Source of the DNA: Patescibacteria group bacterium | Lineage (GTDB): Bacteria; Patescibacteriota; Patescibacteriia; Magasanikbacterales; GWA2-37-8 | Direction: 5' to 3' | Assembly (NCBI GenBank): GCA_041661385.1 | Contig: JBAZUP010000001.1 | Coordinates: 145,692-209,691 of the forward strand | DNA: 64,000 nucleotides | Part shown: positions 1 to 12,034 of the stretch, piece by piece | Position numbering within the stretch: the stretch's first letter is position 1 | How the letters are laid out: each line of letters begins with the position of its first letter | Translations under genes and position numbers: made by a program | Notes under the pieces: generated by a model | Databases searched by the model: none | The model's input: the letters and a program-made list of their open reading frames with translations, nothing else | Told to the model about the DNA's origin: nothing

Positions 1-2
1 TG

Positions 3-251
3 TACTTCGACGATGTCGAAGAAGGCCGGCGCAAGGTTCAGGAAATGTACGACAAAGGCAAGGAATTGAACAAGAAAGCGAAAGCATTGAACAAGGAGAA
101 GTTTCTCAGCGACATTCAGCTGAGTCAAGTGGAAAATCTCCTCGACAAGCTCGAGGAGAGGATCAACGCCGATCGTCAGGCGATCAAGCGGAGGCCTGCC
201 CACATCGGGGCGGCGAAGAACGGTGCCGGTCTCCGGCTGATTACCGCCTAG
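3..251 (+). CDS. C-terminal 82 codons of a GC-rich foreign-looking ORF, 5' truncated by window start; function unknown
   Basis: Open frame from window edge to TAG at 249-251. Codons are strongly C/G-ending (ttc gac aag ctc gag atc aac), unlike the A/T-ending usage of neighbouring genes. Local GC is far above the window mean. Confidence 0.4.
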   Translation, partial: YFDDVEEGRRKVQEMYDKGKELNKKAKALNKEKFLSDIQLSQVENLLDKLEERINADRQAIKRRPAHIGAAKNGAGLRLITA

Positions 252-278
252 CGCGGTTGAGGACTGAACAAAAAACGT

Positions 279-316
279 CCCCCGGTAGCAATCGCTACCG
301 GGGGACATCTATTTTT
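279..316. terminator. Bidirectional rho-independent terminator: 11 bp GC stem cccccggtagc/gctaccggggg with U-runs on both sides
   Basis: Perfect inverted repeat 279-289/294-304 followed by ctattttt. A-run upstream gives a U-run on the opposite strand. Sits between convergent genes. Confidence 0.6.
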
Positions 317-1280
317 ATTTGTTTCCTCCGTGAAATTTTTTATGAGTTTCACGGAGTTTTTTATTTGTGACGTGAGTATAAATCTGAGTTGTGACTATAT
401 TTTTATGGCCAAGCATTTCTTGTACCGATCTCATATCAGCGCCTTCATTTAGAAGATCAGTCGCGAAGCTGTGCCGGAGAGTATGGGGAGTAGCGTCGAC
501 TGGTAAACCGGCCATCACGGTATATTTACGAACAATGCGTTCAACCGACCGGGGAGTCAACCGGTGTTCGTCGTCGCTTCGATCGGTTTTGTAATTTATA
601 AAAAGTGGCGCGTACATATCTTTGGTGCGGATTTTAAGATATTTTCCAAGCCACCCCAGAGCGCGTTTTGAAAAATATACAGTTCGGGTCGATCCGCCCT
701 TGCCGCTAATACTAATTTCTAGTTCATCAATTTTATCGGATAAAATATTTTTTAAATCAAAAATTCGTGCATTTAATGAAGTAAGTTCTGAAACCCGCAT
801 GCCAGTCGAAAATAATATCTCAAGCATAGTGCGGTCACGCAGGCCGTCTTCTTCTGATGTATCCGGCATGTCCAATAATTTTTCAACCTGATTTAAAGTT
901 AAAAATTTAATCGATTTCTCTTTTTCGGTAAGTTTTGGAAGTTTTATTTTATCGGCCGAAATACATTCAATGTCACGCTCGGTAAAATATTTTACAAGAT
1001 TACGCAAAGCGATTAAATAGTAATTCTGAGTAGATTTTTTATTTAATTTTCCGTGATCGTCTTTTTTTCTTGATAAGTATAATCGATAGTTCCAAATATG
1101 ATCCGGGCTAAGTTCGTGCGGCTTGAGATTTTCAATTTTGTTGTCCTTTAGCCAAACGACAAACATTTTAAGAAAATTATGATAATTACGAGTAGAAACC
1201 TGAGATAAACCTTTCTCAACTTCACAATAATCTAAAAAAGACGATATATGATCAATAATTGGTACAGAAGATTTTGGCAT
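315..1280 (-). CDS. Tyrosine site-specific recombinase / phage-type integrase (XerC/D-like)
   Basis: C-terminal catalytic motif HTLRHSFATDLLNEGADMRSVQEMLGHKNIVTTQIYTHV (R..HxxR..Y). 321 aa. Confidence 0.85.
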   Translation of the reverse strand: MPKSSVPIIDHISSFLDYCEVEKGLSQVSTRNYHNFLKMFVVWLKDNKIENLKPHELSPDHIWNYRLYLSRKKDDHGKLNKKSTQNYYLIALRNLVKYFTERDIECISADKIKLPKLTEKEKSIKFLTLNQVEKLLDMPDTSEEDGLRDRTMLEILFSTGMRVSELTSLNARIFDLKNILSDKIDELEISISGKGGSTRTVYFSKRALGWLGKYLKIRTKDMYAPLFINYKTDRSDDEHRLTPRSVERIVRKYTVMAGLPVDATPHTLRHSFATDLLNEGADMRSVQEMLGHKNIVTTQIYTHVTNKKLRETHKKFHGGNK

Positions 1281-1454
1281 AGTGAAATATTAAGCGACGT
1301 TAGATAAATATAATATATCATATTTGAAAAAAAGGGGATAGGGAGACGTTACTAAACATCAAATTTGGTGTATAGTTATATACAAAGGTCGGATAAAATA
1401 ATAAATATCTCCGTATGTATATTAATTAAACATGGTTAGATTAAACTTAAATTT

Positions 1455-2039
1455 ATGATAAAAAAATATTTAACTGGATTCTTAATACTTTCATCAATTC
1501 TAATAACTGTTCCGGTTTTGGCTAATAATGACGTCTCAGTATCGGATTCCACAACCACATCTTCTTCGACTACAGTTCGAACACAGGAAGAAAAAATTAT
1601 TGAAGCTCAACGTAAATTGGAGGAGCGTTTTCAGGAAGCTAAAAGAAAATTACAAGAAAAATTAACATCTTTGCAAACAAAACAGGTAAATCAGGCTGCT
1701 GCAACCGCTTGTGTTGGGTTAGCTGTAAATAAACGAGAGGCTACTGTAGCCGCAGCGTTTGGAACATATTCTACCACTCAGACATCCGTTCTTACAGCGC
1801 GTGCTAATGCATTAAGCGCTGCTTGGACTGCGCCATCGTCAACACAAAAACAAATTCGGACCGCAGTTAACAGCGCCTGGGCAAATTATCGTACCGCGCA
1901 CAGGACTGCTATTGTAGCTCACAACGCGTCAACTACTGCCGCATGGACATTATTTAAAAAAGAAGCAAAAGACTGTAAGGCTTCACAATCAGGTGTGGTT
2001 GTTGATTATCGATCTTACGGACAGGACATGGCTCAATAA
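1455..2039 (+). CDS. Secreted hypothetical protein, N-terminal signal peptide and Ala/Thr-rich helical region
   Basis: MIKKYLTGFLILSSILITVPVLA signal-like start, predicted coiled coil, no recognisable catalytic motif. Confidence 0.55.
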   Translation: MIKKYLTGFLILSSILITVPVLANNDVSVSDSTTTSSSTTVRTQEEKIIEAQRKLEERFQEAKRKLQEKLTSLQTKQVNQAAATACVGLAVNKREATVAAAFGTYSTTQTSVLTARANALSAAWTAPSSTQKQIRTAVNSAWANYRTAHRTAIVAHNASTTAAWTLFKKEAKDCKASQSGVVVDYRSYGQDMAQ

Positions 2040-2060
2040 TTCATAATTGGATACATTTTA

Positions 2061-2090
2061 AACAAGACCGGTCAGTTTGGCCGGTCTTGT
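2061..2090 (+). terminator. Rho-independent terminator hairpin aagaccgg...ccggtctt
   Basis: 8 bp inverted repeat directly after the stop of the 1455-2039 gene. Confidence 0.4.
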
Positions 2091-2142
2091 AAGTTTATCT
2101 CATTAGGACTAGTATAAATATAGAAGTATTAACCTTAATTTT

Positions 2143-2286
2143 ATGGCATTATTTATATGCCCCAACTGCGAACAACGTTCGGAGATTAAGGAAGAAGATG
2201 ATAAGAAAATAACTTCGCACGTTTGTCCGCATTGTGGCCAAACCTACAATGTGGATCAGGAACTTAATGTGATTCTAGAGGAGTAG
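2143..2286 (+). CDS. 47-aa zinc-ribbon protein (CPNC...CPHC)
   Basis: ORF MALFICPNCEQRSEIKEEDDKKITSHVCPHCGQTYNVDQELNVILEE, below the 60-aa ORF-track cutoff. Two CxxC pairs; followed by a hairpin/T-run. Confidence 0.4.
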   Translation: MALFICPNCEQRSEIKEEDDKKITSHVCPHCGQTYNVDQELNVILEE

Positions 2287-2812
2287 TTTTTTCTTGATTC
2301 AATAGCAACCCAATCATAGGGAATATTATTTCCCTTCGGGTTGTTTTTTTAATTGTGTGTATAAAAATATTAAGCGACATTGAATAAACAGTTACGAAAT
2401 ATTTTAGGGGATAAGACCTGAGAAGGAAATATTTAACATTCAGCCGCTCAAATCTATAGATCAACCTGTATGATCCGTCATCTTAAAATCAAAATTATCA
2501 TTGCAAAGCTGGTATTGTATATGAATATAGATTGAGATATACCTGTAGAAATTATCTTAAACATTTCATCCGTGGCAAATAGTTCGATTCATTATTATAT
2601 ATAGGATGTTTGTTAAATAACTTAATTCGGCAGCTTGATGCAGCCCAGGCTTGCTTAGAGTGCTTTAAAGAAGAAAATAGGGGTATAGTTGGCTACTTAA
2701 CAAAAAAGCCCCCATAAGGGCCCTATATCGAATCTATGTTAGTCGCTTAATCTATGTTATACGACGTTGATAATCCCGTTTATTATACCTTGGCTTTTAC
2801 TTTGCTTACCCC

Positions 2813-3793
2813 CTACTTCCAAAATATTCGATCTTCAAGGCGTACATCAATATATTCTTTAGGCTTGCTTGATTTATATACATTCCAAAAAGCAATCAAT
2901 TGATCGTTGGCTGGTCGTTCTGTTGAAAAAATTATTCTCCAGCCTAAATTTGTAACCGCAGTAATATCTCGAGAACCATCATCAATTTCGTAATAGTTAA
3001 TTACTATCCCACCCCCCTTTTGGATCCCGGTATTAAAATCGGCGATTGATGTTATAAGTTCAGGATTAAGTTTGTTGTTTTTTTGGCTAATTTGATCGGA
3101 TTTAAAATAAATTAACGGTAAATCTGGGTAGTTTTTTTGATGCAGTACTATATTTGGTAAATGAACAGTCGCAACTGTTGAGGAGGAGGCTGTATCCGCA
3201 GTGCTTGTTGATATAGGAACGGTAACAAAATCGCCTGGACCTACTGCCCAAAGGTATTTAATTACCTTTCCATCTTTATCTAGCAGGTAGTAATCTCTTC
3301 CGTCATCGTAAATAACAGAACTGTTTTTTTCAGTAATATAAATGTTAAGAGTATTTGGAAATATTTTTTCTACTCTTACATTACTTACCGGATATTCATT
3401 TTTAATACTGTTTGAAATTTTAGATGAATTTACAAACAAGTAGTGATTTAACGGAAAAAATTTGAAATCCTGATGAAGATTTCGACTCACTGTGTCCTCT
3501 ACTTTTTGTTTATCGATAAGATTTAGGCCGACGATGGATACTCGCGTAACTCTAAAAAATGGTAAAAACAACAATAATATTAACCAAGTTGATAAAACAA
3601 TCGATAGCAAGGTTGTTTTTAGTTTGAGAGGTTTAACCTTAATCTTTCGCTTATAAGGATTTGAAAAACCCAAAAAAGCCGTTTCTTCGTATTGACGGAA
3701 TCTTTTCCGGCCGAGCGTTGTACCCACGATTTTTTCCTGACGCCGACGGGAATAATTCTTTTTTAATTTCCTTCCGGTTTGATAATATTTCAT
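2813..3793 (-). CDS. FtsQ/DivIB-like cell division protein (basic N-terminus, one TM, POTRA-like domain)
   Basis: Topology and RVTRVSIVGLNLIDKQKVEDTV POTRA-like segment after the TM helix. Weak similarity call. Confidence 0.45.
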   Translation of the reverse strand: MKYYQTGRKLKKNYSRRRQEKIVGTTLGRKRFRQYEETAFLGFSNPYKRKIKVKPLKLKTTLLSIVLSTWLILLLFLPFFRVTRVSIVGLNLIDKQKVEDTVSRNLHQDFKFFPLNHYLFVNSSKISNSIKNEYPVSNVRVEKIFPNTLNIYITEKNSSVIYDDGRDYYLLDKDGKVIKYLWAVGPGDFVTVPISTSTADTASSSTVATVHLPNIVLHQKNYPDLPLIYFKSDQISQKNNKLNPELITSIADFNTGIQKGGGIVINYYEIDDGSRDITAVTNLGWRIIFSTERPANDQLIAFWNVYKSSKPKEYIDVRLEDRIFWK

Positions 3794-3813
3794 TATTAGG
3801 AAGTTCGTGAATA

Positions 3814-4929
3814 TTATACCACAATTCTCCGAATAAGAGGATTAATTCTCGTAACAATTTCATAATTAATTGTTTCCGGGGTCAGCGCCGTCAAATCATC
3901 AGCAGTTATCTCCTCTTTTCCATCCGCACCGATTAGCGTCACAATTGATCCCTCTTTACAATTTTTTAGTTTTGAAACATCAATCATTGTAAGGTTCATA
4001 CATACGCGGCCTCTCACCGGACACCTTTTTCCATTAATTAGAACTTCGGCTTTATTACTCCAAGCTCTGTCATATCCATCATAGTAACCCACCGGAATAA
4101 TGGCAATTTTGCCGTTTTTAGGCATTTTATAGGTATTACCGTAACTTATGCCTGTTCCTTTCTTTACGTTCTTAACTTGAATAACGGTAGTTTTCCAGCT
4201 TAAAACAGGTTTTAGATTTATTTTTTTTCGCGATTTTTTGTCTGGATATAGGCCATAAGAACACAAACCAATCCGCACTGCGTCATACCGGGCGACTGGA
4301 TGTAAAATTGTAGCGGCACTGCATGATATATGCCTAATCGGCACACAAATTCCTATTTTTTTGAATACCCCGATTGCAGAATCAAATATTCTATTTTGTT
4401 CACGGGTGATTTCATAATCCGTTTCACTCGATGAAAAGTGGCTCCACACTCCTTCAATTTCAATGTGTTTTAATTTTTGAATATTTTTTAAAAAATCTTC
4501 AAGCTCGGACACAAAAAAACCAATTCGCGTTGTGCCGGAATCAATCTTGATATGAATTTTACATCTTTGGCCTATTCGTTCGGCTACGGTATTTAACCAA
4601 ATTGCCTGTTTTAAAGTATAAACTGGAAAGATAACATTCTTTTTCATCGCCTCCCCTGCTTTCTGAATATCAAAACTAAAAAAAGATAAAATTTGAATAG
4701 GCTTTTTTATATTTAACATTCGTAACAGAAGCGCCTCATCTAAATTTACTACAGCCAATCTATCTACATCTTCTAATTCATCGCAGATTTTTGCAACTTC
4801 AGCGATGCCGTGACCGTATGCATTCGATTTAATCACCGGAATTAAAAGTGTGGCCTTTCCAATAAGGTTACGAAAATTTTTCAGATTATGCTCTAGTGCA
4901 GAGCGATTAATTTCTACCCAACTTAGCAT
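3814..4929 (-). CDS. alr: Alanine racemase
   Basis: PLP-lysine motif VIKSNAYGHG near the N-terminus; 371 aa typical length. Confidence 0.85.
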   Translation of the reverse strand: MLSWVEINRSALEHNLKNFRNLIGKATLLIPVIKSNAYGHGIAEVAKICDELEDVDRLAVVNLDEALLLRMLNIKKPIQILSFFSFDIQKAGEAMKKNVIFPVYTLKQAIWLNTVAERIGQRCKIHIKIDSGTTRIGFFVSELEDFLKNIQKLKHIEIEGVWSHFSSSETDYEITREQNRIFDSAIGVFKKIGICVPIRHISCSAATILHPVARYDAVRIGLCSYGLYPDKKSRKKINLKPVLSWKTTVIQVKNVKKGTGISYGNTYKMPKNGKIAIIPVGYYDGYDRAWSNKAEVLINGKRCPVRGRVCMNLTMIDVSKLKNCKEGSIVTLIGADGKEEITADDLTALTPETINYEIVTRINPLIRRIVV

Positions 4930-4953
4930 AAAGATGCCGAGGAAGAATTGTTA

Positions 4954-6192
4954 TTAGATTTTGTTGAAGCTAAGGTATTTTTGCAATACTTTTGGAATCA
5001 AAACCGTGCCGTCTTTTTGTTGATTGTTTTCGATAATTGCGAGCATGGGTCTGTCACTTGCTACAGTTCCGTTTAAAGTGTGCGCGAATACCCTTTTTCC
5101 TTCCTTGTTTTTAATTTTAATATTGCATCTTCGGGCCTGGTAATCCGTGGTGTTGCTTGTCGAGGTAAGTTCACGGTATTTATTTTGTCCGGGAAACCAA
5201 CCTTCACAATCAAATTTTTTGGCAGCTGGAAAGCCGAGATCACCTGAGCAAACATTCACTACCTGGTAATGAATTCCGAGTGAACTAATAAACTCTTCCT
5301 CGTGGGCAAGAAGCTCGTCATGAATTTTTGCCGAATCATCTGGGGCGCAAAAAACAACCATTTCTACTTTATAAAACTGATGGACTCTAAATAACCCTTT
5401 TGTATCTTTGCCATAGCTTCCAGATTCTCGCCGAAAACATGGGGTGATAGCGATATATTTTTTTGGTAAATCGCTCTCATTAAATGTTTCGTCGGCATGC
5501 ATGTAAATTAATGAAACTTCAGATGTGCCAACTAAATATAAATTATCTTCAGTTGGGTTAACTGCATAAACTTCATTTTTATCAGCTGGAAAAAAACCCG
5601 TTCCGTACATCGCCTCTTCTCGCACCAAGACTGGCGGCAGAACTAATTCAAAGCCCTTGCCAACCATAAAATCAACGGCGTACTGCATAATCGCTCTTTC
5701 CAGTTGAGCAACTTTTCCTTTTAAATAATAAAAACGTGAACCAGAGACTTTAGCTCCCCTTTCCATATCAATACCACTTAATACCGATTCAACTGCAAAA
5801 TGTTCCTTGGGTGTAAAATCAAATTCTGGCTTTTTTCCACTGTGACTCGACACCTTGTTTTCGGAATCATCTTTTCCAACTGGTACTGAGGGGTCATTAA
5901 TATTTGGAATTTTAGTTAACAAAGACTGAAGTTCATCGCTTTTTTTCTTCAAAAGATCATCCAGCGCAGCAATTTCTTGGCCAACCTTTTTCATTTCAAT
6001 AATTTCAGCATCGGTTGGTTTAGTTTTTGACTTATCATTTCGTTTTGCCCGAAGTGCTTCGGCTTGTTTTAATAACAGATTTTTTTCTTCATCAAGCCGA
6101 ATGATTGCCGACAAATCAATCTTTACGTTTCTGGTTAAACTATTTTTTTCAACCAATTCTTTATTTTCGCGGATAAATTTTATATCTAACAT
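4954..6192 (-). CDS. serS: Seryl-tRNA synthetase
   Basis: N-terminal coiled-coil arm, class II motifs (FRRE, GLFRVHQFYKVEMV), 412 aa. Confidence 0.93.
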   Translation of the reverse strand: MLDIKFIRENKELVEKNSLTRNVKIDLSAIIRLDEEKNLLLKQAEALRAKRNDKSKTKPTDAEIIEMKKVGQEIAALDDLLKKKSDELQSLLTKIPNINDPSVPVGKDDSENKVSSHSGKKPEFDFTPKEHFAVESVLSGIDMERGAKVSGSRFYYLKGKVAQLERAIMQYAVDFMVGKGFELVLPPVLVREEAMYGTGFFPADKNEVYAVNPTEDNLYLVGTSEVSLIYMHADETFNESDLPKKYIAITPCFRRESGSYGKDTKGLFRVHQFYKVEMVVFCAPDDSAKIHDELLAHEEEFISSLGIHYQVVNVCSGDLGFPAAKKFDCEGWFPGQNKYRELTSTSNTTDYQARRCNIKIKNKEGKRVFAHTLNGTVASDRPMLAIIENNQQKDGTVLIPKVLQKYLSFNKI

Positions 6193-6213
6193 ATGATTTC
6201 GTTTGGACTATAT

Positions 6214-6612
6214 TTATTCTGGCTTTAATTTAGAACTTTTATAAATCTTCTCTTTAAATGGTTTGAGTCGGACAATTTTTGTATTTTTTCCAAATTTGTT
6301 TTCAAGTTCATCAATAAAGAATTTTTGATCATAACCTAGCGCAATAATATCCGGCTTTTCTTCATTAATAATTTGATGCTTGTCTTCATTTTCTGATCCT
6401 AACACCACTCGGTCGGCAATATTTAATTTCTCTAAATTAGCGACTCTTAATTTTTCAGAAAAATGCGGCGAATGATTTTTTACTTTTAATACTGTTTTGT
6501 CGCGAGCTATTACTACCACTAACGAATCAGCAAGTTTTTTTGCTTCTCTTAATAAATATTCGTGGCCGGGGTGTAAAATATCAAAAGTACCAAAAACCAT
6601 TATCTTCGTCAT
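6214..6612 (-). CDS. Small nucleotidyltransferase of the cytidylyltransferase/FAD-synthetase (HxGH) superfamily
   Basis: FGTFDILHPGHEYLL (H/T)xGH motif; 132 aa. Confidence 0.6.
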   Translation of the reverse strand: MTKIMVFGTFDILHPGHEYLLREAKKLADSLVVVIARDKTVLKVKNHSPHFSEKLRVANLEKLNIADRVVLGSENEDKHQIINEEKPDIIALGYDQKFFIDELENKFGKNTKIVRLKPFKEKIYKSSKLKPE

Positions 6613-6620
6613 ATTTTTAT

Positions 6621-8111
6621 CTATTCTTTTGGGTTGCTTTCGGGTCTCAGGGTAGGAAATAAAATCACTTCTTTCAAATTGGGGGCGTTTGTAAGTAGTT
6701 TAACCAAACGATCAATTCCCATTCCCATACCGGCCGTCGGGGGCATTCCATGCATCAAAGCCTCAACAAAATCCGTATCGTATGGCATAGATTCATCATC
6801 TCCGGCCGCTTCAAGTCGTAATTGTTCTTTAAATCTTTCTTCTTGATCAATCGGATCATTTAATTCCGAAAATGCGTTGCAGAGTTCATTTCCACCTACG
6901 CAAAGCAATTGAAATCTTTCAACGTAATTTAAATTTTTTACTTTTCTTTTTGCAAGCGGAGAAAGTTCAACTGGGTGATCGATTACAAAAATTGGGTTAA
7001 TTATATTAGGTCTCGCAAATTTTTTATAAATTTCGTCAATTAATTTGCCGCGGCCGGTACCAGAATCAATGTTGTCGATTTGAAGTTCTTTAGCTTTTTT
7101 AAATAGCGCCCCCTGTTCAGGATAATCCTCAATATCAATTTGAGCATGTTGGCGAATAAGTTCGCGCATCGTAATTCTTTTATAGGGCGGTGTAAAATCT
7201 ACCGTTTCACCTTCAGCTTCAAATTTTAATGATAAACCAATTGAAGTAATTAATTTAGGTAATAAATCCTCAACCAAATCCATTAGCATTTGATAATCGG
7301 CGTACGCCCAATAAAACTCAATTTGTGTAAATTCTGGATTGTGATTTTGATCAATACCCTCGTTTCTAAAACATTTTGCAATTTCGTAAACTTTCTCAAA
7401 ACCGCCGACAATCAAACGCTTTAAATATAGTTCCGGTGCGATACGTAAGTACAAAGGAATATCTAATGCGTTGTGATGTGTCTTAAAAGGTTTTGCAAGA
7501 GCTCCTCCATATAAGGTTTGTAAAACCGGAGTTTCAACTTCAAAAAAACCATGTGAATCAAAATACGAACGAATTTCTTTTACCAAAACGGATCTAATTT
7601 TTGCAATTTTAATTGATTCCGGGTTTGAAATAAGATCTAAGTAGCGTTTTCGATACCTTGCTTCTTGATCGGAAAGTCCGTGCCATTTTTCAGGCAGAGG
7701 CAAAAGCGCTTTGGAAAGAATAAAATATTTTTTAACTAAAATGCTAATTTCGCCTTTGTGAGTCGTAAAAATTGTTCCTTCAACTTCCAAAAAGTCACCA
7801 ATATCAAAATTTTTGTTAAAAAATTTATAAGGGATTTTTTCTAATTCCGTTTCGGTCAGAACGATTTGGATATTTCCCGATTCGTCATGAAGGTGGCAAA
7901 AGGTCAATTTGCCCATTTCACGGCGCGTCATAATTCTGCCCGCCACAGTTAGTGAGGTTCCTTCGGCGGAAATTTTTGCTTCGGCCAAAGTGTGGGTACG
8001 ACGACTGCGCGCTGGAAACGGATCAATGCCTTCATGGATAATATTTTTCAAGTGTCCAAGTCTGGCTTCCGATTCCGTTTGGTGTTCTACCATTTTTTTC
8101 GACTCACTCAT
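6621..8111 (-). CDS. lysS: Lysyl-tRNA synthetase, class II
   Basis: OB-fold N-domain plus class II core (FRNEG, GGNELCNAFSELNDP, GMGIDRL). Start placed at MSESKK; the ORF track extends 18 codons further upstream. Confidence 0.93.
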   Translation of the reverse strand: MSESKKMVEHQTESEARLGHLKNIIHEGIDPFPARSRRTHTLAEAKISAEGTSLTVAGRIMTRREMGKLTFCHLHDESGNIQIVLTETELEKIPYKFFNKNFDIGDFLEVEGTIFTTHKGEISILVKKYFILSKALLPLPEKWHGLSDQEARYRKRYLDLISNPESIKIAKIRSVLVKEIRSYFDSHGFFEVETPVLQTLYGGALAKPFKTHHNALDIPLYLRIAPELYLKRLIVGGFEKVYEIAKCFRNEGIDQNHNPEFTQIEFYWAYADYQMLMDLVEDLLPKLITSIGLSLKFEAEGETVDFTPPYKRITMRELIRQHAQIDIEDYPEQGALFKKAKELQIDNIDSGTGRGKLIDEIYKKFARPNIINPIFVIDHPVELSPLAKRKVKNLNYVERFQLLCVGGNELCNAFSELNDPIDQEERFKEQLRLEAAGDDESMPYDTDFVEALMHGMPPTAGMGMGIDRLVKLLTNAPNLKEVILFPTLRPESNPKE

Positions 8112-8202
8112 ATTTAAGAGGTTAATGTTGAATACTATACAGAAAAAAATGCTTAGCGTCAACAAAAAAACCGACCCATATTAAGCCGGTTTTTAATCTT
8201 AA

Positions 8203-8664
8203 TTATCTAATTTCTTTGATAATGTAGACCATTTTGCCAGACGGAACATTTACTTCTACTTTATCGCCTATTTTATGGCTTAAAAAGGCCTCTCCTAGGG
8301 GCGATTCATTGGAAATGAGACCTTTTGCCGGGTTAATCTCTTGAGGTCCCACAATCGTATATTCTTTGTTTTTTCCATTAATTTCGACTTTAATAGTGTC
8401 CCCAATCGATACAACACCGGTCGTCTGTTTAATAATAATTTTTGCGTTACTAATAATCTTTTCTACTTCAATTAAGCGACCTTGTGCCCAGGCCATATCT
8501 TCTCTGGCTTGGTGGTATTCCGCATTTTCGGACAAATCACCTTGTTGTTTTGCTTCGTCGATACGTTTTGCAATGTCGGGTACGGTAGTATTTTTCAATG
8601 TTAATAATTCGTTTTTTAATTCTTCTAGGCTGTCGGCTGATAAATAATGAATATTTTCTTCCAT
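8203..8664 (-). CDS. greA: Transcription elongation factor GreA
   Basis: Typical GreA N-terminal coiled coil with acidic tip (DLSENAEY) and FKBP-like C-domain; 153 aa. Confidence 0.9.
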   Translation of the reverse strand: MEENIHYLSADSLEELKNELLTLKNTTVPDIAKRIDEAKQQGDLSENAEYHQAREDMAWAQGRLIEVEKIISNAKIIIKQTTGVVSIGDTIKVEINGKNKEYTIVGPQEINPAKGLISNESPLGEAFLSHKIGDKVEVNVPSGKMVYIIKEIR

Positions 8665-8717
8665 AAATAAATTTAGTTATTTTCTAAGTATAACACACAA
8701 ACACGGTGTGTCAAATA

Positions 8718-10700
8718 TTATTCTAGGTATTTTTTGCCCCACCAGTCTAAGAATTTCTGAGCAATCGGCTGTGCGATAACCGACCCCTCTCCCCCATCTT
8801 CGACCAGCACAGTGACCACAATTTGAGGTTTGTTATATGGTGCAAAAGAGGTAAACCAGGCATGGGTCGGCTTGGTTTTACTCCATTGGGCGGTTCCAGT
8901 TTTCCCGGCCGCAGGAAATGCCAGTCCCCTTAATAATCCACAGCTCCCGGCAACAACACACTCTCTCATTCCTTCTCTAACAATTTTTAAATTAGCATCC
9001 GAAACACCAGCTATATGCTTAGTATCAAAAATAATTTTTTCAGATTTTTTATTTAACGGATCAACCATTTCTTTTCCAAGATGCGGAGTGACTAGATCTC
9101 CTCCGTTAGCTACCGCAGCTGTCCAAGCCGCGACTTGAAGCGGACTGACCAACATATCACCTTGGCCGATTGAGACGTTATAGGTGTCACCAACAAACCA
9201 TTGTTCATTTTTTTTCGATCTTTTCCAATCTTTTGAAGGAACAAATCCTGTACTTTCACCCGGTAAATCAATATTAGTTTTTTGACCAAGGCCAAACATC
9301 GCAAAATATTTATCAATTCTATCAATGCCAAGACCGATAAATTTTTCAAAACCTCCGCCGATATAATAGTAAAAAGTGTTTACCGACCAAGCAATGGCTT
9401 TAGTGACATTTGTGATTCCGTGTCCGCCTGCTTTCCAGTCTTTAAAAAATGATTTCCCAACCTCAATTCCTCCGACGCTGTTTACAGTGGTATTTTTGGT
9501 AATAATTCCTTCTTGTAGGGCTGCAGCTGACATGATAAGTTTTATCGTGGATCCGGGTGGGTACTGTCCGCTGATAGTGCGATTAAATAATGGTCGATCT
9601 TCATCGTTTATATATTGAGAATATACGTCTTCTCTAATACCGCCCGCAAAAAGATTGTTATCAAATGAAGGCCAGCTTACCATTGCAAGAATCTCTCCGT
9701 TACTTGGATTCATGGCAATAGCAGATATTTTTCTCTTTTTAGAAATATTTGCCGTTTCACTTACCAATGACTCAAGTTTCTTTTGAGCATCAAGGTCTAT
9801 CGATAAAATTAAATTACTGCCCGGAATCGGTGCTTCGGTTGCTAAAACTGATTGTTCTTTTCCGATCGCATTTACTTCAATTTTCTTTTTTCCATAAGTA
9901 CCGCGTAATATTTTTTCATAACTTTTTTCCAAACCGGTCTTACCTATTAAATCCGAAGATAAATAACCGTCTAAACGGTATTTGCTCAACTCTTCATCGT
10001 TAAGTTTGCCGACGTAACCAATTAAATGAGAAAGACTATAAACAATTTCCGGTTTGGTGTTTGTGGCGGTCAGAAAATAATATCCACGCCTGCTACCACT
10101 TTCAACTTGAACACCCGGTAAATCCGAATTTTCAACATACAACTTTAGCGCTTTAAAATAATCAAGATTGTCTTGAACAGCTAAAGATTCAAAACTATAA
10201 TCACCATATTTTTTTATCAAAGCCACAAGATCAGTGGTGGTTACACCGCTCATTTCAGAAATTCTATTTATTATATGTCCGCGTTCCCCGGGGTTTTTTG
10301 GAAGGTCTTGAGGAACTACGACCAAGGAAAAATTTGGGATATTTTTAAGCAAATCGCGATTATACCGATCATAAATTATTCCACGTTCGGATGCAATCGG
10401 TATCAAGCGAATGCGATTTCCTTCCGCCTGATTACGATATTTATGACCATTAATTATTTGTAGCTGGAAAACTCTTCCAAAAATTATTGCCGTTAAAAAC
10501 AGTACAAAAAATAATAAAATGTTAATTCTTTTTTGGCTTATACCGGTCCCGACATATTTTCGAGTGTGAGAAATAGATAATTTTCCTTTAGAATCATCTT
10601 CGATATCAAAAGAACCTTCAACCCAATCTTTATTATATTTACCGGTTAAATCCCCTATTCCACCAAGATCACTTTCAATTTTGAATGGATTTTTAGCCAT
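8718..10700 (-). CDS. mrdA: Penicillin-binding protein 2 (elongasome transpeptidase)
   Basis: STIK (SxxK), SVN (SxN) and KTGTA (KTG) motifs. N-terminal TM anchor; lies directly downstream of mreBCD. Confidence 0.85.
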   Translation of the reverse strand: MAKNPFKIESDLGGIGDLTGKYNKDWVEGSFDIEDDSKGKLSISHTRKYVGTGISQKRINILLFFVLFLTAIIFGRVFQLQIINGHKYRNQAEGNRIRLIPIASERGIIYDRYNRDLLKNIPNFSLVVVPQDLPKNPGERGHIINRISEMSGVTTTDLVALIKKYGDYSFESLAVQDNLDYFKALKLYVENSDLPGVQVESGSRRGYYFLTATNTKPEIVYSLSHLIGYVGKLNDEELSKYRLDGYLSSDLIGKTGLEKSYEKILRGTYGKKKIEVNAIGKEQSVLATEAPIPGSNLILSIDLDAQKKLESLVSETANISKKRKISAIAMNPSNGEILAMVSWPSFDNNLFAGGIREDVYSQYINDEDRPLFNRTISGQYPPGSTIKLIMSAAALQEGIITKNTTVNSVGGIEVGKSFFKDWKAGGHGITNVTKAIAWSVNTFYYYIGGGFEKFIGLGIDRIDKYFAMFGLGQKTNIDLPGESTGFVPSKDWKRSKKNEQWFVGDTYNVSIGQGDMLVSPLQVAAWTAAVANGGDLVTPHLGKEMVDPLNKKSEKIIFDTKHIAGVSDANLKIVREGMRECVVAGSCGLLRGLAFPAAGKTGTAQWSKTKPTHAWFTSFAPYNKPQIVVTVLVEDGGEGSVIAQPIAQKFLDWWGKKYLE

Positions 10701-10701
10701 A

Positions 10702-11229
10702 TCAAAATGTATAATTATACTTTCGGCGCGGTTTTAAAATATTATATGTTCCGTAAAATAAGAAAAAACATGCCGCATTAAGAAAAATTTCAATTAGTAA
10801 ATAATATATTTCAGAAACCTGATAACTTACACGATCGCCAAAAAGCAACGGAACAAGTGCGGTAAAAAAAGTTAAAAAAGCATAATTCAGTGAAAAACCC
10901 ACTAAACCTAATAAAAAAAAGCTGTACCAAGAATAGGTTGAAAACCAAATTAAAAATATTTGTTTTGCTAAGATTATTGAACAAAAAATTGTCAGTCCCA
11001 AAACACCAAACGAAACAGAAGTAAATAAGCTAAAAATAAAATAAGTTGGAATTATTAACCATAAATATAATAATTTATCTTGATAAACAACTTTCCATAA
11101 AAAAAAGATGAATATAAAATTTACCTGATTAAATGGATACGGTAAAATATACGATATTAAAATTTGAACAATAAATAAAAATACCGTCAAAAAAACATAT
11201 TCCACTAGATTTTTTAGCAAGTGGTACAT
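10702..11229 (-). CDS. mreD: Rod shape-determining protein MreD-like polytopic membrane protein
   Basis: Highly hydrophobic 175 aa; position between mreC and mrdA. Confidence 0.5.
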   Translation of the reverse strand: MYHLLKNLVEYVFLTVFLFIVQILISYILPYPFNQVNFIFIFFLWKVVYQDKLLYLWLIIPTYFIFSLFTSVSFGVLGLTIFCSIILAKQIFLIWFSTYSWYSFFLLGLVGFSLNYAFLTFFTALVPLLFGDRVSYQVSEIYYLLIEIFLNAACFFLFYGTYNILKPRRKYNYTF

Positions 11230-11230
11230 A

Positions 11231-12034
11231 TTATTTTATTATGAGAACACTTACTGAGGAAATTTTAGAATAATCCGTAGCGGGTGTTACGACGGCTTGT
11301 TGAAATGGTTTATACGGTTCGTTTTCAACTTCGGCAATATTGCCAATTAATAGGCCGCGCGGAGTTTTTTCCTCAAGTCCGGATGTTACAACTTGATCAT
11401 TAACAAGAATTATTTCATCGCGCGGAATCAAATTCATTTTTAAACTAATTCCAAAACCACCCTCAATAACACCTAAGCTTTTATCATGGTTTAAAATTGT
11501 TGATCCAACGCGACTGGTATTGTCATTAAGCAGTCTAATAAATGAAATTGATTTTTCGACTTTAAAAATTTTTCCAATTAAAATTCCATTGCCGATGATG
11601 GCCGGGTCCCCTTCGCTTAAACCATCATTTGAACCACGATCGATAATAATAGATTGGTCTGAGCTAATTAATTCTTTTCCGACAACATTTGCAAGCAAAT
11701 GTGTTTGGGTGTGAGTTTGAAAATAATTTAGTTGGCGTCTAAGCTCAGCATTTTCTTCAGAAAATCTTTTTACATCTGCTGTAAGCACTTCAGATTCTTC
11801 ACGATTAGAAATATTTTTTTCGTAAGCAGCAATAAAATCATCTCGATTTTTAAAAAACTGATAATTATCTCCAATTTTAATACTGATTCCATTTATTGAA
11901 CCTAAAATCGGTAACCCTGTTATTCTAATCTTTTCTTCGACTGCGCTTAACCAACCTAAATAATGAAGAGCTATAATTAATAAAAAAACCGCCCCCACGG
12001 ACAGATAGATTTTTTTTTCTCTATTTGGGGCCAT
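11231..12034 (-). CDS. mreC: Rod shape-determining protein MreC
   Basis: N-terminal TM, coiled coil, beta-rich C-domain; operon context after mreB. Confidence 0.7.
   Translation of the reverse strand: MAPNREKKIYLSVGAVFLLIIALHYLGWLSAVEEKIRITGLPILGSINGISIKIGDNYQFFKNRDDFIAAYEKNISNREESEVLTADVKRFSEENAELRRQLNYFQTHTQTHLLANVVGKELISSDQSIIIDRGSNDGLSEGDPAIIGNGILIGKIFKVEKSISFIRLLNDNTSRVGSTILNHDKSLGVIEGGFGISLKMNLIPRDEIILVNDQVVTSGLEEKTPRGLLIGNIAEVENEPYKPFQQAVVTPATDYSKISSVSVLIIK

What the first reader, a model, noticed from the sequence alone, without database searches (positions are those of the whole stretch)
1286..2774. Three copies of a ~25-bp motif (AATATTAAGCGACrTTrGATAAAyA) bracketing a two-gene segment next to the recombinase
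Copy A is AATATTAAGCGACGTTAGATAAATA at 1286-1310, 6 bp upstream of the integrase start codon. Copy B is AATATTAAGCGACATTGAATAAACA at 2366-2390, with 21 of 25 positions identical. Site C (2731-2774) contains the core in inverted orientation (AGTCGCTT) flanked by a 10-bp direct repeat AATCTATGTT, followed by a direct partial copy ACGACGTTGATAAT. Three occurrences of a 10-mer core ATTAAGCGAC within 1.5 kb of an AT-rich genome are very unlikely by chance. Two readings fit. They could be recombination sites (dif-like or att-like) for the adjacent tyrosine recombinase; single-recombinase Xer systems often keep their site right beside the gene. Alternatively they could be operator sites of a regulator controlling the integrase, the secreted protein (1455-2039) and the zinc-ribbon gene (2143-2286).
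Basis: seen in the sequence. Interest (0 to 1): 0.55.

Follow-up and report, generated by a model that had tools for sequence, protein, structure and literature searches.

The report
Terminus dif site plus two half-sites
One of the three motif copies is the complete chromosome-dimer resolution (dif) site of the neighbouring Xer recombinase, sitting at the replication terminus of a Patescibacteria genome; the other two are conserved single-arm copies of it, one of them in the recombinase gene's own leader, where it probably acts as an autoregulatory operator.

Summary
Site C (2739-2768, minus strand: AACGTCGTATAA|CATAGA|TTAAGCGACTAA) is a complete dif-type site with two inverted arms around a 6-bp centre. 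It is unique in the 64 kb. It is conserved at 94-100% next to the orthologous xer gene in at least 15 related Magasanikbacteria genomes. It lies 50 bp from the cumulative GC-skew maximum, where gene orientation converges, so it marks the replication terminus.

Copies A and B each carry only one arm, (T/C)AAYGTCGCTTAATATT. This is the perfect inverted form of the dif right arm, and no second arm follows. A abuts the xer start codon downstream of an extended -10 in eight lineages, including one that lacks the two-gene segment. A therefore belongs to xer, not to a cassette.

Sister genomes lack A. They keep dif itself in the xer leader, and they carry the same arm inside the xer coding sequence with no synonymous codon variation.

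B is a roughly 55-bp paralogue of the A region and occurs in only three lineages.

Best reading: C is dif, and A (possibly also B) is a single-monomer Xer-binding site, probably autoregulatory. The bracketed two-gene segment is clade-restricted cargo lodged between dif and xer. It is not a demonstrable mobile cassette.

The parts
2739..2768 (-). Complete dif-type site (the finding's 'site C'). Left arm AACGTCGTATAA (2768-2757), centre CATAGA (2756-2751), right arm TTAAGCGACTAA (2750-2739).
   Evidence: Unique in the window at up to 3 mismatches. The same 26-30 bp is conserved next to xer in 15 genomes, with 16 invariant columns. It lies 50 bp from the cumulative G-C maximum at 2692.
1286..1302 (-). 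Half-site A, TAACGTCGCTTAATATT. It is a single dif arm (the exact inverse of the right-arm type) plus TATT, lying in the xer leader 5 nt before the ATG.
   Evidence: It is conserved abutting the xer ATG (0-11 nt) in L083, L085, L086, L087, L088, L089 and L090, while the flanks are unalignable.
1312..1320 (-). Extended -10 promoter element TGATATATT for xer, 9 nt upstream of half-site A.
   Evidence: TGnTAyAyT-like elements occupy the same position in 8 lineages. This rests on sequence inspection and was not tested.
1333..1340 (-). TATCCCCT box in the -35 region of the xer promoter. It is shared with the B unit.
   Evidence: Conserved (T)ATCCCCT in WIN, L083, L087 and L088, and TCCCCT in L085 and L086. 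Coordinates were verified.
315..1280 (-). xer, a Xer-family tyrosine recombinase of 321 aa with the catalytic residues R162, K194, H266, R269, H292 and Y301 conserved.
   Evidence: Pfam Phage_integrase 1.6e-39. Best NCBIfam matches are XerD, XerC and XerA, all below the equivalog cut-offs. Orthologues at 70-82% identity occur across Magasanikbacteria, and the catalytic residues fall in invariant columns.
1455..2039 (+). ORF194, a predicted secreted protein of unknown function. It is cargo lying between dif and xer, and a terminator follows at 2062-2090.
   Evidence: No Pfam or NCBIfam family. Only 5 homologues, all in the same subclade. A 42%-identical homologue in L014 lies downstream of xer instead. 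The terminator was found.
2143..2286 (+). 47-aa CxxC...CxxC zinc-ribbon gene. A hairpin terminator follows at 2307-2350.
   Evidence: Weak zinc-ribbon matches. Orthologues occupy the same position in L083, L085, L086 and L088. The terminator was read from the sequence.
2366..2382 (-). Half-site B, CAATGTCGCTTAATATT. It has the same single arm and the same orientation as A. Together with TATCCCCT at 2406-2413 it forms a roughly 55-bp paralogue of the xer promoter/leader, but without a good -10.
   Evidence: B-type sites are also present in L085 (4163) and L086 (26), and absent in L083 and L088, where dif abuts the zinc-ribbon gene.
2391..2704 (.). Non-coding spacer between B and the dif-proximal terminator. 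No function is assigned.
   Evidence: No Rfam match and no phage similarity. It does not align with the equivalent 330-bp spacer of L085.
2705..2724 (-). Intrinsic terminator on the minus strand, just downstream of dif. It ends the ftsQ-like operon, so dif lies in that operon's 3' untranslated region.
2813..3793 (-). ftsQ-like gene (POTRA_1). It is the last gene of the long minus-strand replichore and the conserved neighbour of dif.
   Evidence: Pfam POTRA_1. The order ftsQ-like, then dif, then xer holds in L004, L008, L012, L014, L016, L083, L085, L088 and L089.

Best explanation
Site C is the chromosomal dif site of a Patescibacteria (Magasanikbacteria-type) Xer recombinase. Xer monomers bind two nearly symmetrical inverted arms (TTATACGACGTT and TTAAGCGAC) that flank a 6-bp crossover region. 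Recombination between sister copies resolves chromosome dimers at the replication terminus.

In related genomes dif lies in the leader of xer, forming a dif-xer module like difSL-xerS. In the window's subclade, extra DNA has lodged between dif and xer: about 200 bp in L089, and the zinc-ribbon plus ORF194 pair in the window and its closest relatives. In this subclade xer has its own extended -10 promoter, followed directly by one isolated copy of the stronger arm (half-site A).

A cannot support recombination because it has one arm and no matching centre. It can bind one Xer monomer over the transcription start and early leader. The most likely role is negative autoregulation of xer, replacing the dif-in-leader arrangement.

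B is a partial duplicate of the same promoter/half-site unit. It is retained in three lineages and is either a second Xer-binding accessory site or a relic of the rearrangement that placed the cargo genes here.

Shown: the sequences, their conservation, their positions, and the terminus location. Inferred: Xer binding, autoregulation, and the evolutionary order of events.
For: Evidence that site C is dif:
- The site is conserved 20-60 bp upstream of the xer ATG in L003, L005-7, L009, L012, L014, L020 and L024. It lies further away, but still between ftsQ and xer, in L004, L008, L016, L083, L085, L088 and L089.
- It is unique in the 64 kb.
- The cumulative G-C maximum of a 73.7-kb composite falls at window 2692. 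Skew is +0.07 to its left and -0.10 to its right, and genes converge there.
- Xer has all catalytic residues.

Evidence that A and B are selected single-arm sites:
- Between lineages whose cargo coding DNA is only about 64% identical and whose intergenic DNA does not align, dif is conserved at 94-96%. The 15-21-bp half-site stretches are 90-100% identical and stand out as conserved islands.
- The alignment shows an invariant AAnGTCGnTTAAnnT core and nothing conserved where a second arm should be.
- All extra arms are of the right-arm type, lie on the xer side of dif, and have the same orientation. The left-arm type never occurs outside dif.

Evidence that A belongs to xer:
- A is present in L089, which lacks the two-gene module.
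- A always lies 7-15 nt after a TGnTAyAyT element and 0-11 nt before the ATG.

Independent support for function:
- In 13 sister-clade xer genes, only 5 of 168 conserved degenerate codon columns show zero codon variation. Three of these are consecutive: ACG TCG CTT, which spells the arm.
- The window subclade, which has A instead, varies freely at these codons.
- Where the dif arms read ACTTCG (L017-19), the internal site reads ACT TCG.

Precedent: autoregulation by dif in the xerS leader was proposed for difSL-xerS (PMC1914069).
Against: - No binding, transcription or recombination data exist. The promoter and transcription start are inferred from consensus only, and the generic sigma-70 scan did not flag this promoter.
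- A single tyrosine-recombinase monomer on an isolated arm may bind weakly.
- B has no obvious gene to regulate, and its position relative to neighbouring genes varies.
- A half-site 500 bp inside a coding sequence, as in the sister clade, is an odd position for a repressor operator. The common function of these arms may therefore be architectural rather than regulatory.
- I could not scan the rest of the 779-kb genome. I cannot exclude further half-sites elsewhere or a second Xer paralogue.
- The terminus assignment rests on 74 kb of skew, not on the whole chromosome.
Confidence: 0.7

Rival explanations
1. A and B are the attachment-site scars (attL/attR) of a small element that Xer integrated. 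This would resemble an IMEX, or an Acinetobacter-type dif module, carrying the zinc-ribbon and ORF194 genes. The B-to-C interval would be a second, now empty, module.
For: - A and B are direct repeats that bracket exactly two genes with their own terminators.
- IMEX attachment sites such as TLCphi attP and difGGI typically keep one good arm and a degenerate second arm (PMC5357621).
- The dif-xer interval holds different cargo in different genomes: a 218-aa membrane protein in L004, a 65%-GC Cys-rich ORF in L008, and 3 kb of genes in L016. Half-sites lie on the xer side in L008 and L016.
Against: - A exists without the module in L089.
- L083 and L088 carry the module without B.
- The 'centre' next to the arm (TATTTY) does not match the dif centre (CATAGA). 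The products expected from integration at dif (left arm-centre-P2 and P1-centre-right arm) are not what is seen.
- ORF194 has only 5 homologues, all in this subclade and beside xer wherever the contig reaches that far. A more distant homologue sits on the other side of xer in L014.
- No viral contig carries the dif sequence.
- Neutral scars would not remain 90-100% identical while the flanks randomise.
Confidence: 0.12
2. A and B are non-functional relics. They would be decayed duplicates of the dif/promoter region left by a duplication or rearrangement that moved xer relative to ORF194, and they would have no present role.
For: - A and B share a roughly 55-bp unit that includes the TATCCCCT promoter box, which suggests segmental duplication.
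- The order of ORF194 and xer differs between L014 and the window clade.
- B lacks a -10 element and is missing in L083 and L088.
- An 11-bp reiteration beside site C hints at past rearrangement.
Against: - The arm is a sharply conserved island across eight lineages.
- The same arm is under synonymous-site constraint inside xer in the sister clade.
- Orientation and arm type are uniform.
- These patterns argue for selection, at least on A. The relic reading remains viable for B alone.
Confidence: 0.1
3. The motifs are operators of a separate transcription factor that co-regulates xer, ORF194 and the zinc-ribbon gene.
For: - A lies in the divergent xer/ORF194 intergenic region and B lies after the zinc-ribbon gene.
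- The zinc-ribbon protein could in principle bind nucleic acid.
Against: - The shared sequence is exactly one arm of the Xer site, and in the sister clade it tracks the sequence of the dif arms.
- A persists where ORF194 and the zinc-ribbon gene are absent (L089).
- No regulator gene is conserved in the locus.
Confidence: 0.05
4. This is an integron-like platform. xer would act as the integrase, A as attI, and B and C as attC sites of cassettes transcribed divergently from the integrase.
For: The layout resembles an integron: the recombinase gene is divergent from small genes on the + strand, with repeated sites in direct orientation.
Against: - The integron-integrase models score far below cut-off (105 against 265 bits, and 63 against 435), and they match only the C-terminal catalytic stretch.
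- A and B are not imperfect palindromes and show no single-strand folding signal (z-scores +0.04 to +1.47).
- Cassette content is fixed within the clade.
Confidence: 0.02

Closest known systems
XerS/difSL module of Streptococci and Lactococci (Le Bourgeois et al. 2007, PMC1914069)
   Same: The dimer-resolution site is genetically linked to its recombinase gene and lies at the terminus. In the sister clade, dif lies immediately upstream of the xer coding sequence, in or near its promoter/leader. That arrangement was proposed to autoregulate xerS and to discourage insertions.
   Different: - The recombinase here is XerC/D/A-like (321 aa), not XerS-like (XerS model 116 against 267 bits).
- The site is about 28-30 bp with nearly symmetrical arms, not the 31-bp asymmetric difSL.
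- In the window's clade the link is broken by 0.2-1.5 kb of inserted DNA, and an isolated single arm takes dif's place in the leader.
XerH/difH (Helicobacter, Campylobacter) and archaeal XerA/dif single-recombinase systems (PMC5357621, PMC2958812)
   Same: A near-palindromic site consistent with one recombinase binding both arms, and a terminus location. The XerA model is among the best NCBIfam matches (181 bits, cut-off 220).
   Different: Use of a single recombinase is not shown here, because I did not scan the whole genome. No extra conserved half-sites are described for those systems, to my knowledge.
Canonical XerCD/dif (E. coli GGTGCGCATAA-TGTATA-TTATGTTAAAT)
   Same: The 11+6+11 architecture. 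The left arm CGTCGTATAA resembles the XerC arm GCGCATAA. The function inferred is dimer resolution at the skew switch.
   Different: The right arm is the inverse of the left arm rather than a distinct XerD arm (TTATGTTAAAT). The xer gene is adjacent to the site. More distant Patescibacteria (L028-L040) carry a different conserved site, TTCGTTTTACATATATTGTGCGAA, at the same place.
IMEX attachment sites (TLCphi attP, difGGI) and Acinetobacter pdif modules
   Same: Extra dif-related sites with one good arm next to the bona fide dif. Genes are bracketed by Xer-type sites, and variable cargo sits next to dif.
   Different: A and B have no recognisable second arm and no centre homology to dif. A is independent of the cargo. 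The cargo is clade-restricted and positionally fixed. No element form was found.

Membership tests
Xer/dif chromosome dimer resolution system (site C plus xer) | Core site of two roughly 11-bp inverted recombinase-binding arms separated by a 6-8-bp central region. | tested here: met
   The site reads AACGTCGTATAA|CATAGA|TTAAGCGACTAA. The consensus arms (TTATACGACGTT and TTAAGCGACGT) match in 9 of 11 overlapping positions. The pattern is conserved in 15 genomes.
Xer/dif chromosome dimer resolution system (site C plus xer) | Single copy per chromosome, located at the replication terminus (GC-skew switch, convergence of replichores). | tested here: met
   The site is unique in the 64 kb. The cumulative G-C maximum is at 2692, 50 bp away, and gene strands converge there. 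The whole chromosome was not available, so single-copy status is shown only for 74 kb.
Xer/dif chromosome dimer resolution system (site C plus xer) | A cognate Xer-family tyrosine recombinase with the intact catalytic residues R-K-H-R-H-Y. | tested here: met
   Pfam Phage_integrase plus SAM-like N-terminal domain. Closest NCBIfam models are XerD, XerC and XerA, though below the equivalog cut-offs. R162, K194, H266, R269, H292 and Y301 are invariant.
Xer/dif chromosome dimer resolution system (site C plus xer) | Recombination at the site resolves dimers, usually under FtsK control. | not testable with these tools
   No biochemical or genetic data. No FtsK-like gene was seen in the window by a crude motif scan. 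The rest of the genome was not examined.
Single-recombinase dif-xer module (XerS/difSL type of organisation) | dif lies immediately upstream of the recombinase gene. | tested here: not met
   The feature is met in sister genomes (20-60 bp). In the window, dif is 1.46 kb from the xer ATG with two genes between them, and only half-site A is adjacent.
Single-recombinase dif-xer module (XerS/difSL type of organisation) | Only one Xer recombinase in the genome. | tested here: inconclusive
   There is no second paralogue in the 64-kb window. The nearly symmetrical arms fit a single recombinase. The other roughly 715 kb of the genome could not be searched.
IMEX / dif module (A-B bracketed segment) | The element is flanked by dif and a dif-like site that has at least one arm plus a central region homologous to dif. 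| tested here: not met
   A and B have one arm, but their centre TATTTY differs from CATAGA and there is no second arm. In L083 and L088 the module is flanked by dif and A only.
IMEX / dif module (A-B bracketed segment) | Mobility: variable presence, occurrence in other contexts, or an extrachromosomal form. | tested here: not met
   ORF194 has 5 homologues, all in this subclade and beside xer wherever the contig reaches that far. There is no viral-contig match to dif. Site A is present without the module in L089.
Integron | An IntI-type integrase with the IntI-specific additional domain. | tested here: not met
   TIGR02249 scores 104.8 bits against a cut-off of 265. NF011946 scores 62.7 against 435. 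Both match only the C-terminal catalytic stretch.
Integron | attC sites that are imperfect palindromes able to fold as single strands. | tested here: not met
   There is no folding signal at A or B on either strand (z-scores +0.04 to +1.47).

The most novel reading that the evidence does not exclude
Patescibacterial Xer recombinases may use conserved isolated single arms of dif as a second class of binding site tied to their own gene. In one clade the arm is in the 5' leader. In the sister clade it is embedded in the xer coding sequence under synonymous-codon constraint, and it changes together with the dif arms. These arms would provide Xer autoregulation, or an architectural or directional accessory function for dif recombination in these minimal genomes. 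This layer has not been described for any Xer/dif system.
Probability: 0.35. Interest if true: 0.6.

Novelty: new variant of a known kind. Interest (0 to 1): 0.45.

Why it matters
It assigns the dif site and replication terminus of a Candidate Phyla Radiation genome. My literature searches found no description of this for the group. It shows that the linked dif-xer arrangement known from Streptococci extends to Patescibacteria.

It also bears on a specific proposal from 2007: that keeping dif in the recombinase leader both autoregulates the gene and blocks insertions. Here one clade keeps dif in the leader, while its sister has suffered insertions between dif and xer. The sister clade retains just one arm in the leader. 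This natural experiment makes the autoregulation idea directly testable.

The synonymous-site constraint on an arm inside xer is an unusual, clear case of a DNA site overlaid on coding sequence. The dif-xer interval also emerges as a recurrent landing place for foreign, often GC-rich, genes in these tiny genomes.

Tried and rejected
- **Known RNA genes.** I searched Rfam at gathering and permissive thresholds over the locus and scanned for tRNAs. Nothing relevant turned up in 1200-2900.
- **RNA structure at A, B or C.** There is no signal at A or B. C shows only the mild hairpin expected of an inverted repeat (z = -1.7).
- **Generic sigma-70 and terminator scan.** Promoter matches were no more frequent than in shuffles, and the scan did not flag the xer promoter. 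The terminators were useful.
- **The 340-bp spacer between B and C.** It has no phage similarity, does not align with the analogous L085 spacer, and holds no convincing ORF.
- **Viral-contig scans.** The full dif gave 0 hits. The 16-mer half-site gave 33 hits in a few unrelated phage families, with no extended similarity, which I judged compatible with chance in a collection of that size.
- **Remnant xer fragments.** I asked whether A or B are leftover pieces of xer. tblastn of Xer against the window finds only the gene itself.
- **A weak second arm 6 bp from A or B.** Only 5/12 or fewer matches, not conserved between lineages.
- **Homology among the GC-rich cargo ORFs** (L008, L086, window 1-251). 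By eye there is no evident similarity, and I did not pursue it.
- **Literature on dif in CPR/Patescibacteria or on Xer half-site autoregulation.** None found.
Full report
**1. What is in the sequence**

The window is an AT-rich Patescibacteria genome of the Candidatus Magasanikbacteria type. The recombinase's exact protein occurs on a 779-kb contig, and its orthologues are annotated as Magasanikbacteria. An independent 69-kb assembly (L001) matches window 1-11280 at 99.99% and extends it 9.7 kb to the left.

Site C contains the core on the other strand.

The extended motif is far beyond chance. The 25-mer pattern occurs twice against 0 in shuffles. The 12-mer ATATTAAGCGAC at up to 1 mismatch occurs 5 times against 0.5 expected. 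The bare 10-mer also occurs at 8471 and 16137, but inside genes and with no flanking similarity.

A and B also share AGGGGATA 40-47 nt further along, so the repeated unit is about 55 bp.

**2. Site C is a complete dif site at the replication terminus**

I fetched 80 loci encoding relatives of the recombinase and eight loci from the closest relatives. In the Magasanikbacteria-type genomes a single element stands out upstream of xer: AACGTCGTATAA-CATAGA-TTAAGCGACGT. It has two roughly 11-bp arms that are inverted copies of each other (TTATACGACGT and TTAAGCGACGT) around a 6-bp centre. This is the architecture of a Xer core site.

The window's site C, read on the minus strand (2768-2739), is an exact copy of the 26-bp consensus core. 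It is unique in the window at up to 3 mismatches.

The gene order ftsQ-like, then dif, then xer is conserved.

Almost every gene to the right of 2813 is on the minus strand, and the genes to the left of xer converge on it. In the 73.7-kb composite the cumulative G-C curve peaks at window 2692, 50 bp from the site. Mean skew is +0.07 to the left and -0.10 to the right. A skew maximum with converging genes marks the terminus, which is where dif is expected.

The recombinase is Xer-like. Its best NCBIfam models are XerD, XerC and XerA, all below the equivalog cut-offs. The catalytic residues R162, K194, H266, R269, H292 and Y301 are invariant.

More distant Patescibacteria carry a different conserved site, TTCGTTTTACATATATTGTGCGAA, at the same place upstream of xer. 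Linkage of dif to xer therefore seems general in the group.

**3. A and B are single arms, not recombination sites**

Aligned across lineages, the A/B-type sites share (T/C)AAYGTCGCTTAATAT(T). This is the perfect inverse of the dif right arm plus three or four bases. Nothing is conserved where a centre and a second arm should be. The adjacent 'centre' TATTTY does not match CATAGA.

In all loci examined, the left-arm type (GTCGTATAA) never occurs outside dif. The right-arm type recurs only on the xer side of dif and always in the xer-sense orientation.

The lineages compared have cargo coding DNA only about 64% identical and intergenic DNA that does not align. Even so, dif is 94-96% identical and the 15-21-bp stretches around the half-sites are 90-100% identical. 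This is the signature of selection, not of neutral scars.

**4. A belongs to xer**

In eight lineages (window, L083, L085, L086, L087, L088, L089, L090) the arm lies 0-11 nt before the xer start codon and 7-15 nt after an extended -10 element (TGnTAyAyT). A (T)ATCCCCT box lies further upstream. The arm therefore covers the predicted transcription start and early leader.

L089 is decisive. It has ftsQ, dif, about 200 bp of non-coding DNA, the promoter, the half-site and xer, but no zinc-ribbon or ORF194 genes. A therefore predates the two-gene segment, or at least is independent of it.

In the sister clade the whole dif occupies the equivalent position, just after a -10-like element and 20-60 bp before the ATG. 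Le Bourgeois et al. speculated that this arrangement lets XerS autoregulate and protects the module from insertions (PMC1914069). The window's clade looks like the state after such an insertion: dif stayed by ftsQ, and xer keeps one arm in its leader.

**5. An unexpected corroboration inside the gene**

Sister-clade genomes lack a leader half-site of the A type. Instead they contain the same arm inside xer, at the codons for T-S-L-N of the conserved GMRVSELTSLN box: ACG TCG CTT AAY.

In a codon alignment of 13 such genes, 168 columns have a conserved amino acid with degenerate codons. Their mean normalised codon entropy is 0.75. Only five columns have zero entropy, and three of those are these consecutive 4-, 6- and 6-fold degenerate codons. 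The neighbouring E, L and S codons vary freely.

The window and its relatives that have A use varied codons here: ACT TCA TTA, ACG TCA TTA, ACA TCC TTG and others.

In L017-L019 the dif arms read ACTTCG and the internal site reads ACT TCG. This is a small but consistent covariation.

An isolated arm associated with xer therefore seems to be selected in both clades, at different positions. An internal site is an odd place for a classical operator. The common role may be architectural, for example a third Xer-binding point near dif, rather than simple repression. I cannot discriminate between these.

**6. B and the bracketed segment**

B has the same arm and orientation as A and shares the TATCCCCT box, but it lacks a good -10. 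B-type sites occur in the window, L085 and L086.

In L083 and L088 the zinc-ribbon gene abuts dif directly and there is no B.

The roughly 340-bp spacer between B and dif is not conserved with L085's spacer. It matches no RNA family and no phage.

ORF194 has only five database homologues, all from this subclade, and they lie beside xer wherever the contig reaches that far. A 42%-identical homologue in L014 lies downstream of xer. This suggests a local rearrangement or duplication of the xer promoter region rather than import of a mobile cassette.

Across genomes the dif-xer interval nevertheless holds varied cargo: a membrane protein in L004, a 65%-GC Cys-rich ORF in L008, and 3 kb of genes in L016. 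It is therefore a recurrent insertion point.

The IMEX/dif-module reading remains a minority rival (about 0.12). It fails on the centre homology, on the products expected from integration at dif, and on A's independence from the cargo. An integron reading fails on the integrase models and on site structure.

**7. Verdict**

This is a new lineage and organisational variant of the known Xer/dif system, with an interesting and untested extra layer of conserved single-arm sites. Nothing here has been tested biochemically. Binding, autoregulation and the evolutionary order are inferences.

Noticed in passing
L003-L014, L020, L022, L024 and L026, about 500 nt into xer (e.g. L005:4495-4512). The corresponding window codons are at about 771-785 (minus strand).: Sister-clade xer genes carry the dif arm AACGTCGCTTAA inside the coding sequence (codons T-S-L-N = ACG TCG CTT AAY). 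Codon variation is zero there, while the neighbouring codons vary. The window's clade has lost this site (ACT TCA TTA AAT).
   Followed up: yes
window 2731-2741 and 2749-2759: An 11-bp direct repeat AATCTATGTTA flanks the right arm of dif. The end of the left arm plus the centre (TAACATAGATT) is reiterated just outside the right arm. Similar partial reiterations follow the right arm in L083 (TATAACAT) and L016 (CGTACTAACATAG). This may be a footprint of past Xer-mediated events or a tandem partial site.
   Followed up: partly
window 1-310 (continues in L001:10970-11480): A GC-rich (about 50%) stretch in a 35%-GC genome holds a small ORF ending at 251. A strong bidirectional terminator follows at 273-310, immediately downstream of xer. 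The automatic 189-aa gene call on L001 appears to be in the wrong frame. This is probably foreign DNA at the terminus.
   Followed up: partly
L008:3354-3857; L086:80-493; L016:1043-3853; L004:3348-4004: The dif-xer interval carries different cargo in different genomes, and some of it is strongly GC-rich relative to the host (65% against 43% in L008, 53% against 44% in L086). It looks like a recurrent landing site for acquired genes.
   Followed up: partly
L025, L028-L034, L036, L037 and L040, about 25-60 bp upstream of xer (further upstream in L035): More distant Patescibacteria (Kaiserbacteria, Nomurabacteria, contigs labelled Saccharibacteria and others) share a different conserved candidate dif, TTCGTTTTACATATATTGTGCGAA, directly upstream of xer.
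   Followed up: no
L014:1853-2407: A 42%-identical homologue of ORF194 lies downstream of xer and convergent with it, rather than between dif and xer. This implies a rearrangement of xer relative to this gene during the clade's history.
   Followed up: partly
L012:240-345 and L016:3930-3975: Extra arms lie close to dif or xer in other geometries. L012 has dif followed by an inverted right arm (TTAAGCGAC-CTGTG-GTCGCTTAA) and a further GACCGCTTAATAT. L016 has a tail-to-tail pair, TTAAGCGAC-GGGCCA-ACGTCGCATAA.
   Followed up: no
window 2391-2704: About 310 bp of non-coding DNA between half-site B and the dif-proximal terminator. It has no RNA-family match, no conservation in L085 and no convincing ORF.
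   Followed up: partly
window 1281-1454, 2040-2142 and upstream of most genes: Start codons here, including those of xer, ORF194 and the zinc-ribbon gene, lack recognisable Shine-Dalgarno sequences. The predicted xer leader is only about 15-27 nt.
   Followed up: no
window 2813-64000: Almost every substantial ORF over 61 kb is on the minus strand, with uniformly negative GC skew. This is an unusually strict co-orientation of genes with replication.
   Followed up: partly
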